DNA from: an uncultured Thermoplasmata archaeon
Lineage (GTDB): Archaea; Thermoplasmatota; Thermoplasmata; UBA10834
Direction: 5' to 3'
DNA: 64,000 nucleotides
Assembly (NCBI GenBank): GCA_963719945.1
Contig: CAVRDX010000001.1
Coordinates: 320,001 to 384,000, forward strand
The stretch's first letter is position 1. Every line of letters starts with the position of its first letter. Under the pieces are notes generated by a model. That model searched no databases, was not told the origin of the DNA, and was given only the letters and a program-made list of their open reading frames with translations. Shown here in pieces: positions 49,398 to 54,951 of the stretch. A program made the position numbers and the translations under genes.

Positions 49398-50255
49398 ATG
49401 TTTCCAGAGCATTGCAAGGAAGTCAGCGTAAGGTCTGTGGATTTCCAGTTGACTGAGGAGAACATACTCAGGTTCCTTGGCGGTAAAAATGCATACATCC
49501 GGACGAAGTACTTCGTCTTGAACTCCGGTGATTCCTGGGCTGTAGCTGCTATAACGAAGCGAAGCGCCAACTCTGTGCTTCATCCGATAGAGTCCGTTCG
49601 AATACTGGCGCTGCCCAGTGAAACGCGATTCATCTACGATCCCTTGCTGGAGGTATTGTCCGCCACTAAGATGGGGATGATTCGTGAACAGACTGGTTCG
49701 CGTTGCGTGGTCGTGAAGGGTCGGTCCGAACACATATCCTTCTTCGTGGAAGAAGCCGCAGAACGGTTGACCGTCTTCGATGTGGTGCCGCCAGCGCCAT
49801 CGAAGCTGGTGAGCATGGTCGATCAAGTCCTTGAGTCTGAGCTCCAGGACAGGTTCGTCAAACGCGAGGTCATCGAGCTAAACCTCAACGATGTCGCTGC
49901 TGGAATCGATACTCCAATCATAATGTATCCCTGCAGGGCGTCCGGTCTCAGTTCAGATAAGGTGGTCATGTATCTCGATGAAACGCGGGAGCTGGATCGT
50001 TCAAAATTAGATGGTGTGACGCTGGTTGGGTGCAGTCTATCTGCTCGCATCTTCAAAGCCATCTATGGCAGAGAACCGAAGCTGGTCAATATCTGTCCTC
50101 GTGACCTCGCCAGACAGAGGAACATCCAGGGTCCGATGCTCGTCAAATGTTGCAAGGTCAAGGAAGGGTTCGAACGAGATGGCGATATGGTCATCGTCCC
50201 ATGGGGTACCAGGATGTCCGAGGTTGCAGACGCGCTGAGATCCGTCCTGGGTTAG
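49398..50255 (+). CDS. Conserved hypothetical Cys-rich protein
   Basis: EHISF, FDVVPP.PSKL, YPCRASG, GCSLS, NICP, KCC pattern suggests metal or FeS binding. Confidence 0.75.
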   Translation: MFPEHCKEVSVRSVDFQLTEENILRFLGGKNAYIRTKYFVLNSGDSWAVAAITKRSANSVLHPIESVRILALPSETRFIYDPLLEVLSATKMGMIREQTGSRCVVVKGRSEHISFFVEEAAERLTVFDVVPPAPSKLVSMVDQVLESELQDRFVKREVIELNLNDVAAGIDTPIIMYPCRASGLSSDKVVMYLDETRELDRSKLDGVTLVGCSLSARIFKAIYGREPKLVNICPRDLARQRNIQGPMLVKCCKVKEGFERDGDMVIVPWGTRMSEVADALRSVLG

Positions 50256-52168
50256 ATGTCCAGCTCTTCTTCTCTGAACGCGACAACTGGGCACGGGCCC
50301 AGGCATTTGCTGCAATGGGTGCACTTCTCGGCATCGATGATCGCTCTACCATCCAGGTGCAGGGCACCGAACTCGCATCTTCCGATACATATCCCGCAGC
50401 CAGTGCAATTCATCGCCTTGAACACAATCTCTTTGGTGATCAAAGCTCTTCGATCGAGTTCCTCTTCCGTTTTGCCTCTTATCATGACTGGTCCTTCACC
50501 GAATACCGTCAGGCCGCGCACCTCTACGATCTCTCCATCTGGTGATGTCGTAACTGTGCCTATCGCATTCATGAGGTTGGCGACCCTATCCATGTCTAGT
50601 CGTTTTGTGAATACACCTTCCATGCTCAATCCTTCGACACATGGGCTGTAACCTTTCGTGCTTCTGAACTCGAGGGGTGTTTCGCTCTCCTGGGTTGATT
50701 CATTCGCCTTCAGGTCGATGCCTTTCATGGACAATTCGCTCAAAATCGATTCCGGCACCTTTCGCCATCTCCATAGGTCGTATTCTCTCCATGCGTCGGG
50801 CATGCCTTTCCTCTTAGAGTATTCGTCGAGCAGCGCGTCCCATCTCCCATATTCCTTGCTTATATCCCTGACCTTCTTCAACTCGGCGAGATCCGTCGCT
50901 GGACACAAGAAACAACCTATTCTTTCCAACCCCTGGCGGTACAGGGGATTGTAGTTCGCCTTCCTCGAAAAGAGATAGATCCAGACATGGAGGGCGGTCC
51001 ATTTCTGAATCGGTGATGCGCCAAGCTGGTTCGGGGTCCAAGGATTCCTCCATATGCGTCCCTTGCCCGCCCTGAGTTCTGATTCGTAAGCACGTTGTCC
51101 TATGAATGAAAGAACACCCTTCGGGAAATTCTTCTGGATTATCCTCGTGGCCGGCCCCAGCTTGCATGTCTTGCAGCACCATCTGTAATCCTTTGCCGGA
51201 GGGCCGAAGAGCGAGACATTCCTCCAAAAAGCGTCCCCTGCTTCTTCCTTGACTATTTCCAGAGAATATTCCTCAGCGACCTCCTCGACGTTCCTCCTGG
51301 TCTCCTGGAACTCGAGTCCCGTGTCTATGAACATGAGCTTTGGTCTGATTCCAGCCTCGAGGACCAACAACAATGTCGCGAGACTATCTTTTCCGCCGCT
51401 GTAGGAAACTGCGATGGGCAGGGGATTCTCGCTCACCACCCTGCTGATGAAAGTCTTGGCCTCGCTCACTCTACGTTCCAAGACCTCTTGATTGGCAACA
51501 AGCACATCATCCCAAGTAACCTCAGCGCCTCGTGGTTCATGGGCTTCATTCGACACGACCCACCTTGTCTTGACCGCGGTTCCCTTCGTGCCTGGTCTGA
51601 GCATCTCCTCTGCAGACATCTTCGCGACGCCTACTGAGACCGGTTGTCTTCCCTTGTCCAGAACCAATACGTCGTCTCCCTGCCTGATCCCTGGGTCGCA
51701 TTCGAGAACCCCAACCGCCAATGTGCTCGCCTTTCTATTCCTGATGGGATCGAGAGCTCCGTCATCGACGATGACCCAGCTCTTTGAGATCAGTGGTGCG
51801 AGGAGTTTGGCGCTGAGCGGCTTGAGCAGGAATCTGTTCCCGTGCACTATGTCGAACCTGATTGCGCCCGCGACCTCCCCGTCAAGGATTATCTCATCCA
51901 TGCGGTCCAGGTCTGGCGCTTTGTTCAAAAGAACGATCTTTTCAGACGGTATCAGGGCATCTCCGGTTCCGGGGCCGAACTGTCGGTTCACGATCTCTCG
52001 GATGTACTGAATATCTGATTCGAAAGCGGGCCTCGCATCTCCCGGAGGAGTGATCTGGAGCCCTCTCGTATCCGAGCCGCATCTCCCACAAGACCTCTCC
52101 TCGAGTACCGGAAGGTTGCAGGCATCGCACCAGCGAAGGTGGATCTTGCCAAGTCGTATCTCTGCCAC
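50252..52168 (-). CDS. PAPS-reductase-family protein with PUA and 4Fe-4S ferredoxin domains
   Basis: N-terminal Zn-finger (WCDACN..CGRCG), PUA domain, SYSGGKDS, RWCCKTCK, RIGCFLCP, two C-terminal ferredoxin motifs. Confidence 0.9.
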   Translation of the reverse strand: MAEIRLGKIHLRWCDACNLPVLEERSCGRCGSDTRGLQITPPGDARPAFESDIQYIREIVNRQFGPGTGDALIPSEKIVLLNKAPDLDRMDEIILDGEVAGAIRFDIVHGNRFLLKPLSAKLLAPLISKSWVIVDDGALDPIRNRKASTLAVGVLECDPGIRQGDDVLVLDKGRQPVSVGVAKMSAEEMLRPGTKGTAVKTRWVVSNEAHEPRGAEVTWDDVLVANQEVLERRVSEAKTFISRVVSENPLPIAVSYSGGKDSLATLLLVLEAGIRPKLMFIDTGLEFQETRRNVEEVAEEYSLEIVKEEAGDAFWRNVSLFGPPAKDYRWCCKTCKLGPATRIIQKNFPKGVLSFIGQRAYESELRAGKGRIWRNPWTPNQLGASPIQKWTALHVWIYLFSRKANYNPLYRQGLERIGCFLCPATDLAELKKVRDISKEYGRWDALLDEYSKRKGMPDAWREYDLWRWRKVPESILSELSMKGIDLKANESTQESETPLEFRSTKGYSPCVEGLSMEGVFTKRLDMDRVANLMNAIGTVTTSPDGEIVEVRGLTVFGEGPVMIRGKTEEELDRRALITKEIVFKAMNCTGCGICIGRCEFGALHLDGRAIIDAEKCTHCSKCLGPCPVVAFREEELDI

Positions 52169-52203
52169 AAGCTTCTGGAAAGTGCCTACGTATTATAGAC
52201 TTT

Positions 52204-52212
52204 CCACTCAGA
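52204..52212 (+). repeat. Target-site duplication, left copy (CCACTCAGA)
   Basis: Identical to 53587-53595 and abuts the left TIR. Confidence 0.9.
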
Positions 52213-53586
52213 GGTTCTGTCAATCTTCGGATGGTGTTGTCGATGGTGCCTTTCCAGATGACATGAATATCTCGTCGATCGCACGAGTAGCATGCATGTA
52301 GCCAGGTAGCGGATATGTTCCTATCCAGATGCTTTCTTCGATGCTCCACAGAGCAGTCGTGTTCCACATTCAGGGTGAGCTACCATCTGAGGTTAGGGCG
52401 CTCATGGTAGGTTTTCGCCTGGCAGTCAACTCCGCGATCAGAGCCGGTTTGCATGCGAGAGTGACCTCCAGGAACGCCCTGGCGAAGCTGGCGTACAAAG
52501 ACTTCAGGAAGGAGCATCCGAACATGTATGCCCAGCATCTGGTATCCTCGTTCGAAGTCGCGGGTTCGATACTCAAGAACCTCCGAAGGCGTTGGGGGAA
52601 GGGTCCAATTCATCGCATTCCATATGTGCGGCGACTGATGATGAAGGCGGAGAACCAGGCATACAAGCTCGATCGAGAGAATGGCGTGGTCGACCTTCCG
52701 ATACGAGCAGGATGTCATGTGAAGCTGAGGCTCGTCCTGAGCGATTACCATCGCGTCTTTCTGAACGACAGAACTCTCTCCCTTGGTTCACTGACACTCC
52801 TATCTGACAGGGTCATAATAGTCTTCAGGAAGAGTCCACCTAAATCATACATTCCAGAGATGGCCCTGTCTCTGGATACCAATGAGCGGAGCTTGGACGG
52901 CGTGTTCCTGAGCAAAGGGGAAAGTGCGCCAGTTCAAGCAGCATATCCCGATGTCGCGATAATCCAGGCACGGCATCACGATCGACGTAAGCGTCTTCAG
53001 AAGAGGAAGGCGCACGATCGACGGACATCTAGACGGTTGTGCAACAAAGAGGGGAGGAGGGAACGCCATCGGATCGAGTACCGCATGCACCAGGTGGCCA
53101 ACGCAGTGCTCGGCTTCGCGGAGGAGCATAAATCGACGATTGTGCTCGAGGATCTGAATGGTATGATCGGGCGTAAGCGTGGCAAGTCGCTCAACAGACG
53201 TTTGAGTTCGTGGCCTCGGAGGAAGCTGCACAACATCATCGAGTACAAGGCAGCCTGGAAAGGCGTGCCAATCATCAAGGTCGATCCATACAACAGCAGC
53301 AGGAGGTGCCCGATATGTGGGAGATTGAATCATTCCCGAATGGGCGCCGAGTTCGAGTGTGAGTGCGGTTGGCGTGCGGACAGGCATGTCAACGCCGGCA
53401 TAAACCTGCTGCAGACAGCCTTCCCGGATGGGATGGCAGGGGGCTTACGGTTCAGCCCCGGCGCGTTCCAGCATGACGTGGTGATGACCCTCTACGACCC
53501 ATTCATGGGCGCACGGTCGGAGCCGAATGGGACGAGTCGATCGGTGGGGCGGTCATGATGACCACCACCCGATTATTGACAGAACC
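52213..53586 (+). mobile_element. Non-autonomous TnpB-carrying insertion element with TIRs and a 9-bp TSD (1,374 bp)
   Basis: GGTTCTGTCAAT (52213-52224) and ATTGACAGAACC (53575-53586) are perfect inverted repeats; CCACTCAGA flanks both ends; the only gene is tnpB. Confidence 0.9.
52329..53558 (+). CDS. tnpB: TnpB-family RNA-guided endonuclease
   Basis: RuvC-I LSLDTNERSLD, bridge region RMHQVAN, RuvC-II IVLEDL, IEYKA, SSRRCPICG..FECECG zinc finger, RuvC-III DRHVNAGINL. Confidence 0.93.
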   Translation: MLSSMLHRAVVFHIQGELPSEVRALMVGFRLAVNSAIRAGLHARVTSRNALAKLAYKDFRKEHPNMYAQHLVSSFEVAGSILKNLRRRWGKGPIHRIPYVRRLMMKAENQAYKLDRENGVVDLPIRAGCHVKLRLVLSDYHRVFLNDRTLSLGSLTLLSDRVIIVFRKSPPKSYIPEMALSLDTNERSLDGVFLSKGESAPVQAAYPDVAIIQARHHDRRKRLQKRKAHDRRTSRRLCNKEGRRERHRIEYRMHQVANAVLGFAEEHKSTIVLEDLNGMIGRKRGKSLNRRLSSWPRRKLHNIIEYKAAWKGVPIIKVDPYNSSRRCPICGRLNHSRMGAEFECECGWRADRHVNAGINLLQTAFPDGMAGGLRFSPGAFQHDVVMTLYDPFMGARSEPNGTSRSVGRS

Positions 53587-53595
53587 CCACTCAGA
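53587..53595 (+). repeat. Target-site duplication, right copy (CCACTCAGA)
   Basis: Identical to 52204-52212 and abuts the right TIR. Confidence 0.9.
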
Positions 53596-53596
53596 C

Positions 53597-54010
53597 CTAC
53601 TTGAGCGCCTTGAGCTGCTTTACGACAGATTCGACGGCGTCCTTCGCCCTCTCTATCCTGTCCTCTGCCTGGAGCCTGCTCATGCCTGGGCCCGTGATGC
53701 CGAGGCCGACGGGTTTCTCGAACTCGACCGCGAGATCGGTGATTTTCCTCGCTGCTTGGCCTATGACGATCTGGTCATGTGCAGTCTCACCCTCTATGAC
53801 CGCGCCAATCGTCACGACGCCATCAATCGATTTATCCTTCAGAAGCGTCTTGATCGCCAGAGGCATATCGAAGACGCCCGGGACCATCATGATTCTGGAT
53901 ACATCTACATCCAGGAATTTCGCATGCTCCTTCGCCCTTTCAAGCATCATCTGTGTCAGGTCGAAATTGAATTCGCTGCACACGATGCCAATCTTGTACT
54001 TGCTTGCCAT
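53597..54010 (-). CDS. ribH: 6,7-dimethyl-8-ribityllumazine synthase
   Basis: SEFN, VPGVFDMP, GAVIEGETAH, KPVGLGITGP. Confidence 0.95.
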   Translation of the reverse strand: MASKYKIGIVCSEFNFDLTQMMLERAKEHAKFLDVDVSRIMMVPGVFDMPLAIKTLLKDKSIDGVVTIGAVIEGETAHDQIVIGQAARKITDLAVEFEKPVGLGITGPGMSRLQAEDRIERAKDAVESVVKQLKALK

Positions 54011-54034
54011 TTCAGAACCTCCTTCTTTCAATCG

Positions 54035-54951
<917 letters not shown>

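What the first reader, a model, noticed from the sequence alone, without database searches (positions are those of the whole stretch)
52204..53595. TnpB inside a DDE-type transposon shell: terminal inverted repeats plus a 9-bp target-site duplication
Seen: a 1,374-bp element encoding only TnpB. It is bounded by perfect 12-bp TIRs (GGTTCTGTCAAT / ATTGACAGAACC, imperfectly extending to about 24 bp) and flanked by exact CCACTCAGA direct repeats. Established: IS200/IS605 (HUH TnpA) and IS607 (serine recombinase) elements, the classic TnpB hosts, have no TIRs and make no such TSD, whereas TIR plus TSD is the signature of DDE transposases. From recall, IS6-family IS257/IS431 ends begin GGTTCTGT. Inference: this is a non-autonomous element mobilised in trans by a DDE (possibly IS6-like) transposase, i.e. 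an RNA-guided nuclease partnered with a different transposition chemistry. The intact TSD suggests a recent insertion.
Basis: partly seen in the sequence, partly recalled or inferred. Interest (0 to 1): 0.9.

Follow-up and report, generated by a model that had tools for sequence, protein, structure and literature searches.

The report
TnpB gene riding IS6-type transposon ends
A 1.4-kb jumping element in an uncultured Thermoplasmata archaeon carries only the RNA-guided protein TnpB and its guide-RNA scaffold between IS6-type inverted ends, makes a true 9-bp target duplication, and lands in one orientation just upstream of host promoters; TnpB inside a DDE-type transposon was published in 2023, so this is a new partner family and a new target rule.

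Summary
Window 52213-53586 is a 1374-bp element with a 24-nt inverted repeat (12 nt perfect), an intact 409-aa tnpB, and exact CCACTCAGA repeats on both sides. Four copies in this genome each have a different 9-bp duplication. Two relatives hold the empty site with one copy of the 9-mer.

The end motif GGTTCTG-N8-CGGGTGGTG occurs in 23 of 41 genomes of the family. The same ends bound small non-coding derivatives (MITEs) and elements with other cargo genes. They also follow the stop codon of IS6-family DDE transposase genes (SWIM-HTH-DDE) in relatives and metagenomes. This genome has no such gene and no Y1 TnpA. Trans-mobilisation by an IS6-type transposase is therefore supported but not proven: no two-ended intact partner was found.

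Two further results:
- The last 260 nt fold into a covariation-supported ωRNA-like structure.
- In 40 of 43 independent insertions, TT lies directly 5' of the left duplication, with a TATA-like box 4-9 nt further upstream and usually a divergent host gene.

TnpB is under purifying selection, with His in place of the RuvC-III Asp.

Other agents of this scan reached the same IS6-type reading on other copies in this genome. DDE-associated and solo TnpBs with inverted ends were published in 2023.

The parts
52192..52197 (.). A/T-rich TATA-like box (ATTATA), 16-21 nt outside the left end. It is most likely the TATA box of the divergent host gene that starts at 52168.
   Evidence: At least 5 of 6 A/T at these positions in 34 of 43 independent insertions, against 6.6% of genomic TT sites. 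An outward-reading ORF is present at 35 of 42 sites.
52201..52203 (+). TTT directly 5' of the left duplication. This is the conserved TT(B) target motif: a candidate TAM, and the complement of the promoter's BRE 'AA'.
   Evidence: T at -12 in 40 of 43 and at -11 in 43 of 43 independent insertions. There is no mirror motif on the right flank. P = 2e-49. 21 of 23 MITE insertions show it too.
52204..52212 (.). Left copy of the 9-bp target-site duplication, CCACTCAGA.
   Evidence: The 9-mer is single in the empty sites of G005 and G010.
52213..52236 (+). Left terminal inverted repeat (LE), GGTTCTGTCAATCTTCGGATGGTG.
   Evidence: pair I1. The family motif GGTTCTG-N8-CGGGTGGTG is in 23 of 41 family genomes; the reversed control gives 0.
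52329..53558 (+). tnpB, 409 aa, intact. RuvC-I Asp, RuvC-II Glu and the zinc finger are present. RuvC-III reads ADRHVNA, with His for the canonical Asp.
   Evidence: Median dN/dS is 0.16, and D-R-H is conserved in 26 of 27 copies.
53327..53586 (+). ωRNA-like structured region. It overlaps the 3' end of tnpB and runs to the tip of the right end.
   Evidence: Consensus fold of 23 diverse copies: 60 pairs, 96.9% paired against 30-43% when slid, 19 pairs with compensatory changes against 2-6, and 0 of 500 shuffles reach it. No Rfam family matches.
53563..53586 (-). Right terminal inverted repeat (RE), CACCACCCGATTATTGACAGAACC on the + strand. Its variable spacer pairs with a segment about 50 nt upstream in the RNA fold.
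   Evidence: helices 13 and 14, with covariation.
53587..53595 (.). Right copy of the 9-bp target-site duplication. By analogy with other TnpB elements, it would be the first 9 nt of the ωRNA guide.
   Evidence: The guide role is inference only.
50252..52168 (-). Host gene left of the element (PUA + PAPS reductase + 4Fe-4S domains), transcribed away from it. Its start lies 45 nt from the left end.
53597..54031 (-). Host gene right of the element (lumazine synthase family). Its stop codon lies 2 nt beyond the right duplication.

Best explanation
This is a non-autonomous insertion sequence. A tnpB gene and its 3' ωRNA scaffold are packaged between IS6-type terminal inverted repeats.

Movement (inferred): the element does not move by the single-strand Y1 route of IS200/IS605. 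A DDE transposase supplied in trans recognises the ends GGTTCTG-N8-CGGGTGGTG and makes 9-bp staggered target cuts. The best candidate is the SWIM-HTH-DDE IS6-family transposase of related archaea, whose own gene is followed by the same end. That machinery also moves MITEs and elements with other cargo.

Target choice (shown as a pattern): insertion is strongly oriented. The left end lands 9 bp downstream of a TT that sits next to a TATA-like box, usually at the upstream edge of a divergent host promoter.

Role of TnpB (inferred): TnpB with its ωRNA probably serves as the element's retention and homing module. The guide would be the right duplication plus the flank. The empty site then reads TTB + protospacer and would be a target. 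In the occupied site the protospacer is preceded by ...GAACC, and the left copy matches only 9 nt, so neither should be cut.

Shown: ends, duplication, empty sites, shared ends, RNA structure, target motif, purifying selection. Inferred: who moves the element, the guide and TAM, and nuclease activity.
For: Ends, duplication and empty site:
- The ends and the 9-bp duplication are at the stated coordinates.
- Four copies in this genome have four different 9-bp duplications.
- Further insertions in relatives have 9-bp duplications matching 8 or 9 of 9.
- The empty site, with one 9-mer, is in G005 and G010. An independent 349-bp MITE sits 1 bp away at the same spot in G006.

Shared ends:
- The end motif is in 23 of 41 family genomes; the reversed control gives 0.
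- IS6-family DDE genes (PF13610; SWIM + HTH + DDE) carry the same motif just after their stop codon, in 11 genome loci and 14 or more metagenome loci. One example is GGTTCTGGTGCATTAGCGGGTG, against TnpB-element right ends that read GGTTCTGTTGCATTAGCGGGTGGTG.
- The LE type GGTTCTGTCACAAGTCGGGTGGTG is also shared between IS6-derived and TnpB elements.
- The same shell carries a peptidase C11 gene with a perfect 9-bp duplication. It also bounds 23 MITE insertions.
- The published bacterial IS6 inverted repeat starts GGTTCTGTTGCAAAGT (PMC2920175).

Absence of other routes:
- This genome has no PF13610, rve, DDE_Tnp_1 or Y1 gene.
- Y1 TnpA is in 0 of 11 genomes of the genus, although all 11 hold the element.

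RNA, target and protein:
- The ωRNA-like fold is supported by covariation.
- The TT and A/T-box target rule and its asymmetry hold across 43 insertions, and a divergent ORF lies at 35 of 42 sites.
- tnpB has a median dN/dS of 0.16.

Precedent: DDE-associated TnpBs with inverted ends, and solo TnpBs with the same ends, are described in PMC10691335.
Against: - No intact IS6-like element with both ends was found. Every full-length IS6-like gene examined has the right end only, with no left end within 2.5 kb upstream.
- None of the 46 family genomes searched has an intact close homologue of that transposase. They hold only C-terminal remnants, plus one 33%-identical 440-aa gene without these ends.
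- IS6 elements classically give 8-bp duplications (my knowledge of the family); here the duplication is 9 bp.
- The RuvC-III Asp is replaced by His, so nuclease activity is unproven.
- I could not tell whether TT is read by TnpB as a TAM or by the transposition machinery. Two elements in the same shell with no detectable tnpB obey the TT rule (L107/L063 and L204). One does not (L197).
- No RNA data could be obtained.
Confidence: 0.62

Rival explanations
1. The TT plus TATA-box rule has nothing to do with TnpB. The transposase, or a host factor bound at BRE/TATA such as TFB/TBP, directs oriented insertion to the upstream edge of promoters as a safe haven. TnpB is then only one of several cargos, and its TAM may differ.
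For: - The A/T box sits at a fixed distance in 34 of 43 sites.
- An outward-reading host ORF starts mostly 35-68 nt from the left end at 35 of 42 sites, against 4 of 42 in the reversed control.
- Two elements in the same shell with no detectable tnpB also sit behind TTB, and L204 also behind a TATA-like box (L107/L063 and L204).
- Cargo varies between elements.
Against: - TT is far better conserved (43 of 43 at -11) than the TATA-like box. That is the reverse of what I would expect of natural promoters (my knowledge).
- A transpososome with two like ends is not expected to choose an orientation.
- In known TnpB families the TAM matches the transposon's target motif (PMC13565253). Both readings can therefore hold at once.
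- One cargo element without TnpB lacks the TT.
Confidence: 0.3
2. TnpB is no longer mainly a homing nuclease. It has His for the RuvC-III Asp and a guide whose first 9 nt always match the left flank next to a host promoter's BRE. It could act as an RNA-guided binder or regulator, like the TldR proteins, at the occupied locus.
For: - D-R-H is conserved in 26 of 27 copies under purifying selection.
- The geometry TT + 9-nt match beside BRE/TATA is seen at most sites.
- Nuclease-dead TnpB regulators are known; the review cites TldRs.
Against: - The RuvC-I Asp and RuvC-II Glu are invariant, and an Asp two residues upstream is conserved.
- The D-to-His change characterises large TnpB branches that the authors consider probably still active (PMC10691335 section 8).
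- The element is multi-copy and mobile rather than fixed at one host locus.
- A 9-nt match is short.
Confidence: 0.1
3. TnpB itself, an RNase H-fold enzyme, is the transposase of these inverted-repeat elements, so the element is autonomous.
For: - No other transposase gene was found in this genome.
- No intact IS6-like partner is present in the 46 family genomes, although the element is widespread with MITE derivatives.
- tnpB is under purifying selection.
Against: - The same ends bound IS6-type DDE genes and cargo elements that lack tnpB.
- TnpB is dispensable for transposition in the studied families (PMC13565253).
- No TnpB is known to catalyse strand transfer.
- The assembly is only 87% complete, and copies here are 9-13% diverged, so present mobility in this genome is not required.
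Confidence: 0.05
4. It is an ordinary IS1341-type member of IS200/IS605, moved by a Y1 TnpA, and the inverted repeat and direct repeat are coincidental.
For: The source databases annotate these proteins as 'IS200/IS605 family accessory protein TnpB'.
Against: - More than 60 insertions have 9-bp duplications and inverted ends.
- Empty sites hold a single 9-mer.
- This genome has no Y1 gene, and neither does any of the 11 genomes of the genus.
Confidence: 0.01

Closest known systems
DDE-transposase-associated TnpB branches (DDE-1 to DDE-6) and solo TnpBs with the same ends (Altae-Tran et al. 2023, PMC10691335)
   Same: TnpB sits inside a transposon with inverted terminal repeats. The tnpB 3' end lies within 250 bp of the transposon end (here 28 bp). 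Solo tnpB copies carry the ends of a transposase-bearing element, which implies mobilisation in trans.
   Different: - The DDE partners named in the texts I could read are IS630 in the paper, and ISL2, IS630 and IS1031 in the review PMC13565253. IS6 is not mentioned in the paper's main text.
- I found no element that holds both the DDE gene and tnpB.
- The 9-bp variable duplication and the oriented TT/TATA target rule are not described there, as far as I could read. The supplement was not checked.
IS1341 group (tnpB-only) of the IS200/IS605 family
   Same: About 1.3-1.4 kb, a single tnpB gene, an ωRNA-type structured 3' end, many diverged copies per genome, and short non-coding derivatives.
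   Different: IS200/IS605 elements have no terminal inverted repeats and make no target duplication; a Y1 TnpA moves them as single strands (PMC13565253). This element has a 24-nt inverted repeat and a 9-bp duplication, and there is no Y1 gene in the genus.
IS6 / IS26 family (IS257, IS1216, IS240)
   Same: The terminal sequence GGTTCTG(T)TGCA... is the same as the printed IS6 inverted repeat (PMC2920175). The candidate partner gene matches Pfam DDE_Tnp_IS240.
   Different: - This element encodes no DDE transposase.
- The duplication is 9 bp, not the classical 8 bp.
- The candidate partner is longer (about 395 aa) and has an N-terminal SWIM zinc finger.
- Oriented promoter-proximal targeting is not, to my knowledge, a feature of the IS6 family.
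Fanzor1 in eukaryotic DDE transposons
   Same: An RNA-guided TnpB relative rides in cut-and-paste transposons that have inverted ends and target duplications.
   Different: In Fanzor1 the short 5' duplication is read as part of the TAM, and the 3' duplication lies in the ωRNA scaffold (PMC13565253). Here the duplication is 9 bp and variable. The conserved TT lies outside it, and the 3' copy would be guide sequence.

Membership tests
IS200/IS605 (IS1341 group) | No terminal inverted repeats; subterminal hairpins instead | tested here: not met
   A 24-nt terminal inverted repeat, conserved as a motif in 23 of 41 family genomes.
IS200/IS605 (IS1341 group) | No target-site duplication | tested here: not met
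   9-bp duplications at more than 60 insertions. The 9-mer is single in empty sites.
IS200/IS605 (IS1341 group) | A Y1 (HUH) TnpA available in cis or in trans | tested here: not met
   PF01797 is absent from this genome and from 0 of 11 genomes of the genus. The assemblies are incomplete.
TnpB / OMEGA effector | TnpB fold with RuvC D-E-D triad and zinc finger | tested here: inconclusive
   PF07282 matches at 8e-19, and TnpB and Cas12f structures match by sequence. The RuvC-I Asp, RuvC-II Glu and CxxC...CxC are invariant. RuvC-III has His for Asp in 26 of 27 copies, a published type of rearrangement.
TnpB / OMEGA effector | Structured ωRNA overlapping the gene's 3' end and reaching the transposon end | tested here: met
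   Covariation-supported fold of the last 260 nt.
TnpB / OMEGA effector | TAM 5' of the protospacer that matches the transposon's target motif | tested here: inconclusive
   TT(B) lies directly 5' of the left duplication in 40 of 43 insertions. Whether TnpB reads it is untested.
IS6 family | Encodes a DDE_Tnp_IS240-type transposase | tested here: not met
   tnpB is the only ORF in the element, and PF13610 is absent from the genome. At most it is a non-autonomous derivative.
IS6 family | Short terminal inverted repeats beginning GG(T/C)TCTG... | tested here: met
   GGTTCTGTCAAT here, and GGTTCTGTTGCA in relatives. The printed IS6 repeat is GGTTCTGTTGCAAAGT.
IS6 family | 8-bp target duplication | tested here: not met
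   The duplication is 9 bp throughout. The 8-bp figure for IS6 is from my own knowledge.
IS6 family | Transposition through cointegrates | not testable with these tools
   The only hints are RE-9 bp-LE junctions in L080 and L197.
DDE-associated TnpB transposons (Altae-Tran 2023) | Inverted terminal repeats, with the tnpB 3' end within 250 bp of an end | tested here: met
   The tnpB stop codon at 53556-53558 lies 28 bp from the right tip at 53586.
DDE-associated TnpB transposons (Altae-Tran 2023) | A DDE gene in the same element, or a solo copy with ends nearly identical to a DDE-bearing element | tested here: inconclusive
   This is the solo form. The right-end motif is shared with IS6-like genes, up to 22 of 24 nt. 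No DDE-bearing element with both ends was found.

The most novel reading that the evidence does not exclude
TnpB may take part in choosing or holding the target. Its TAM (TTB) would be the complement of the archaeal promoter's BRE. DDE-mediated insertion would then be fixed at 9 bp from a TnpB-readable motif, in one orientation. In the occupied locus the ωRNA's first nine guide bases would re-match the left flank beside the host promoter. This would be a minimal, guide-independent coupling of an RNA-guided protein to a DDE transposase, or a built-in promoter-proximal regulator, rather than simple co-travel.
Probability: 0.12. Interest if true: 0.85.

Novelty: new variant of a known kind. Interest (0 to 1): 0.6.

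Why it matters
TnpB is the ancestor of Cas12. Its biology is understood almost only for IS200/IS605 and IS607, which excise without a scar. How a guide-RNA nuclease pays its way in a cut-and-paste or copy-in DDE transposon is an open point raised in the 2026 review (PMC13565253).

This archaeal family offers a clean, testable case:
- a defined end motif;
- a candidate IS6-type transposase;
- a conserved ωRNA;
- a predicted short TAM (TTB) that sits outside a variable 9-bp duplication;
- more than 60 natural insertions showing oriented landing at the upstream edge of promoters.

If the target rule is set by the transposase, this is a rare example of promoter-directed, oriented insertion in archaea. 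If it reflects the TAM, it shows how homing can work with a long, variable duplication.

The D-E-H RuvC site is also worth an activity test.

Tried and rejected
- Autonomous partner in this genome. A pair search for GGTTCTGT(C/G)AAT ends with a 9-bp duplication found only the TnpB copies. A self-BLAST found no other repeated insertion sequence.
- Left end of the full-length IS6-like genes. I tried motif scans, a best inverted-repeat search over the upstream DNA held for each locus (1.7-2.7 kb), and BLAST between loci with different flanks. None found a left end. This remains unresolved.
- tnpB next to IS6-like genes. None was found in 60 or more loci.
- DNA homology between the 3' ends of the TnpB element and the IS6-like element beyond the inverted repeat. 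It is weak and unconvincing.
- Rfam. No family matches the 3' RNA.
- Two contig look-ups returned no DNA.
- The Y1 route was rejected.
- A search for more IS6-type left ends without TnpB gave only three hits. That is too few to separate TAM from transposase preference.
- Not done: structure prediction, complex prediction, and the supplements of PMC10691335. Those supplements might already list this branch.
Full report
**1. The observation**

- CCACTCAGA lies at 52204-52212 and again at 53587-53595.
- GGTTCTGTCAAT lies at 52213-52224, and its reverse complement at 53575-53586.
- The repeat finder extends the inverted repeat to 24 nt at 88% complementarity and lists the 9-bp direct repeat.
- The only long ORF inside is 52329-53558 (+), 409 aa, matching the TnpB/Cas12f TNB domain (PF07282, E = 8e-19).
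- Database names for near relatives place the organism in the Thermoplasmata, as a metagenome-assembled genome.

**2. A real mobile element with a real target duplication**

The 1.78-Mb assembly holds four copies, 87-91% identical to each other.
- Three have both ends and different perfect 9-bp duplications: CCACTCAGA, GTCTCAAGA and GGCGAATGT.
- The fourth (contig 1, 171965-173317) lacks its left end. The junction is what a deletion between two ATGGTGC repeats would leave, one in the duplication copy and one internal, so its duplication was CCATGGTGC.

Relatives add further insertions with 9-bp duplications matching 8 or 9 of 9.

The flanks of the window copy align colinearly over 800 of 800 positions in two genomes of the same genus (G005 and G010), with one copy of the 9-mer. 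In a third genome (G006) the same intergenic spot holds an independent 349-bp derivative of another subfamily. It has the same orientation, and its duplication is shifted by 1 bp.

The insertion therefore post-dates the split from G005 and G010. Nothing shows that it is recent, because no near-identical copy exists.

**3. The family**

- DNA matches to the element occur in 26 of 61 relatives searched, including all 11 other genomes of the genus.
- The end motif GGTTCTG-N8-CGGGTGGTG occurs in 23 of 41 family genomes. The reversed control pattern gives none.
- Short derivatives of 349-593 bp keep the left end plus the last 280-380 nt. I examined 23 such insertions, most with 9-bp duplications.
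- The same shell also carries other cargo. A 2017-bp element in G013 has a clostripain-family peptidase gene and a perfect CGGACCAAG duplication. An element in G027 has neither tnpB nor the IS6-like gene in the 1.5 kb held.

**4. The protein and the RNA**

Among 27 intact copies the median dN/dS is 0.16.
- The RuvC-I Asp (LDTNE), the RuvC-II Glu (LEDL) and the zinc finger are invariant.
- RuvC-III reads D-R-H-(I/V)-N-A. The His aligns with the catalytic Asp of a solved TnpB.
- This Asp-to-His change is a published type of TnpB active-site rearrangement whose activity is untested (PMC10691335 section 8).

The last 260 nt (window 53327-53586) are very conserved and fold into a consensus structure of 60 pairs.
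- 96.9% of cells are paired, against 30-43% when partners are slid.
- 19 pairs show compensatory changes, against 2-6 in the slid controls.
- None of 500 shuffles reaches the observed values.
- One helix pairs the variable spacer of the right inverted repeat with a segment about 50 nt upstream. This may explain why the two ends are imperfect copies of each other.

No Rfam family matches. I read this as the ωRNA scaffold. Expression could not be checked.

**5. Who moves it**

- This genome has no IS6-type DDE, no rve, no DDE_Tnp_1 and no Y1 TnpA gene. It is 87% complete.
- Y1 TnpA is found in none of the 11 other genomes of the genus.
- IS6-family DDE genes (PF13610) occur in a few relatives, mostly as C-terminal remnants. 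Full-length genes of about 395 aa, with SWIM zinc finger, HTH and DDE domains, occur in metagenome contigs.
- In nearly all of these loci the stop codon is followed by CACCCG-N8/9-CAGAACC, the same right-end motif. The loci have several different downstream flanks.
- A remnant in G019, also seen in a metagenome contig, joins a left end of the TnpB-element type to the last third of the transposase gene and its right end.
- A paper prints the bacterial IS6 inverted repeat as GGTTCTGTTGCAAAGT... (PMC2920175). Many right ends in this family read GGTTCTGTTGCA.

The shared ends, the MITEs and the varied cargo argue for one trans-acting IS6-type transposase.

The weak points are these.
- No full-length IS6-like gene has a recognisable left end in the 1.7-2.7 kb of upstream DNA held for each locus.
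- No intact close homologue exists in the 46 family genomes searched.
- The duplication is 9 bp rather than the classical 8.

**6. The target rule**

I oriented 43 independent TnpB-element insertions by tnpB.
- T occupies position -12 in 40 and position -11 in all 43, directly 5' of the left duplication. Position -10 is G, T or C in 40 of 43.
- The right flank shows nothing comparable.
- Against the genomic TT frequency of 0.048 this gives P = 2e-49.
- A box with at least 5 of 6 A/T at -21 to -16 is present in 34 of 43 sites, against 6.6% of genomic TT sites (P = 2e-32).
- At 35 of 42 sites an outward-reading ORF of at least 100 aa starts mostly 35-68 nt from the left end. The reversed-sequence control gives 4 of 42.
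- 21 of 23 MITE insertions follow the TT rule.

In the window, the PAPS-reductase-like gene starts 45 nt from the left end.

The left end therefore abuts the upstream edge of a divergent BRE/TATA promoter. The TT is the complement of the BRE 'AA'.

**7. How it most likely works**

A DDE transposase binds the two ends and inserts the element with a 9-bp stagger next to TT, in one orientation.

If TnpB takes its guide from the DNA beyond the right end, as other TnpB elements do, the guide begins with the duplication.
- The empty site reads TTB + protospacer and would be cut.
- The occupied site would be protected, because the right copy is preceded by GAACC and the left copy matches only 9 nt.

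That would give the homing and retention role known from IS605 and IS607, with a TAM matched to the transposon's target motif (PMC13565253).

I could not decide whether TT is read by TnpB, by the transposase, or by both. Two elements with no detectable tnpB obey the rule and one does not.

**8. Comparison and novelty**

Altae-Tran et al. (2023) reported six DDE-associated TnpB branches with inverted terminal repeats. They also reported solo TnpBs with the same ends, taken to be moved in trans. The kind is therefore known.

As far as I could read, the new points are:
- the IS6-type partner;
- the archaeal family;
- the variable 9-bp duplication with a conserved TT outside it;
- the oriented, promoter-proximal target.

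Other agents of this scan reached the IS6-type reading on other copies of this genome. I tested that reading independently here.

Noticed in passing
window 53370-53390 (codons for ADRHVNA): The RuvC-III motif has His where the catalytic Asp is canonical, with an Asp two residues upstream. This is conserved in 26 of 27 family members, and tnpB is under purifying selection.
   Followed up: partly
L197:494-2510 (G013 contig 15): A 2017-bp element with the same inverted ends and a perfect 9-bp duplication (CGGACCAAG) carries a clostripain-family peptidase (Peptidase_C11) gene instead of tnpB. Its left end lies exactly 9 bp from the right end of an older IS6-like remnant, giving an RE-9 bp-LE junction. 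L080:3558/3568 shows the same kind of junction. It resembles a tandem-dimer or circle junction.
   Followed up: partly
L078:3460-4318 (also L079 and L082): An insertion of about 859 bp, with a 270-aa ORF, sits 64 nt inside the right end of the IS6-like element. The IS6-like right end also has a second, subterminal copy of the CACCCG-N-ACAG motif.
   Followed up: no
L078:2083-2364 (-), and equivalent positions in L074-L085: A conserved 93-aa zinc-ribbon ORF is transcribed divergently from the IS6-like transposase gene and appears to belong to the same unit.
   Followed up: no
G000 contig 1, 171965-173317 (L003): This copy lost its left inverted repeat by a deletion between two 7-bp ATGGTGC repeats. 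The same truncated copy is present in G005.
   Followed up: yes
G000 contig 1, 142210-144448 and 155626-157864 (outside the window): A 2240-bp duplication at 98.75% identity. It is the only other long repeat in the assembly, and its content was not examined.
   Followed up: no
window 53597-54031 and 54035-54499 (-): Two adjacent lumazine-synthase-family (DMRL_synthase) genes in tandem, just right of the element.
   Followed up: no
L047/L060 (G006 contig 12, 177785-178666): An intact 436-440-aa ORF with an IS6-type DDE domain, only 33% identical to the SWIM-DDE group and without the GGTTCTG ends. G006 is one of the genomes richest in TnpB elements and MITEs.
   Followed up: no
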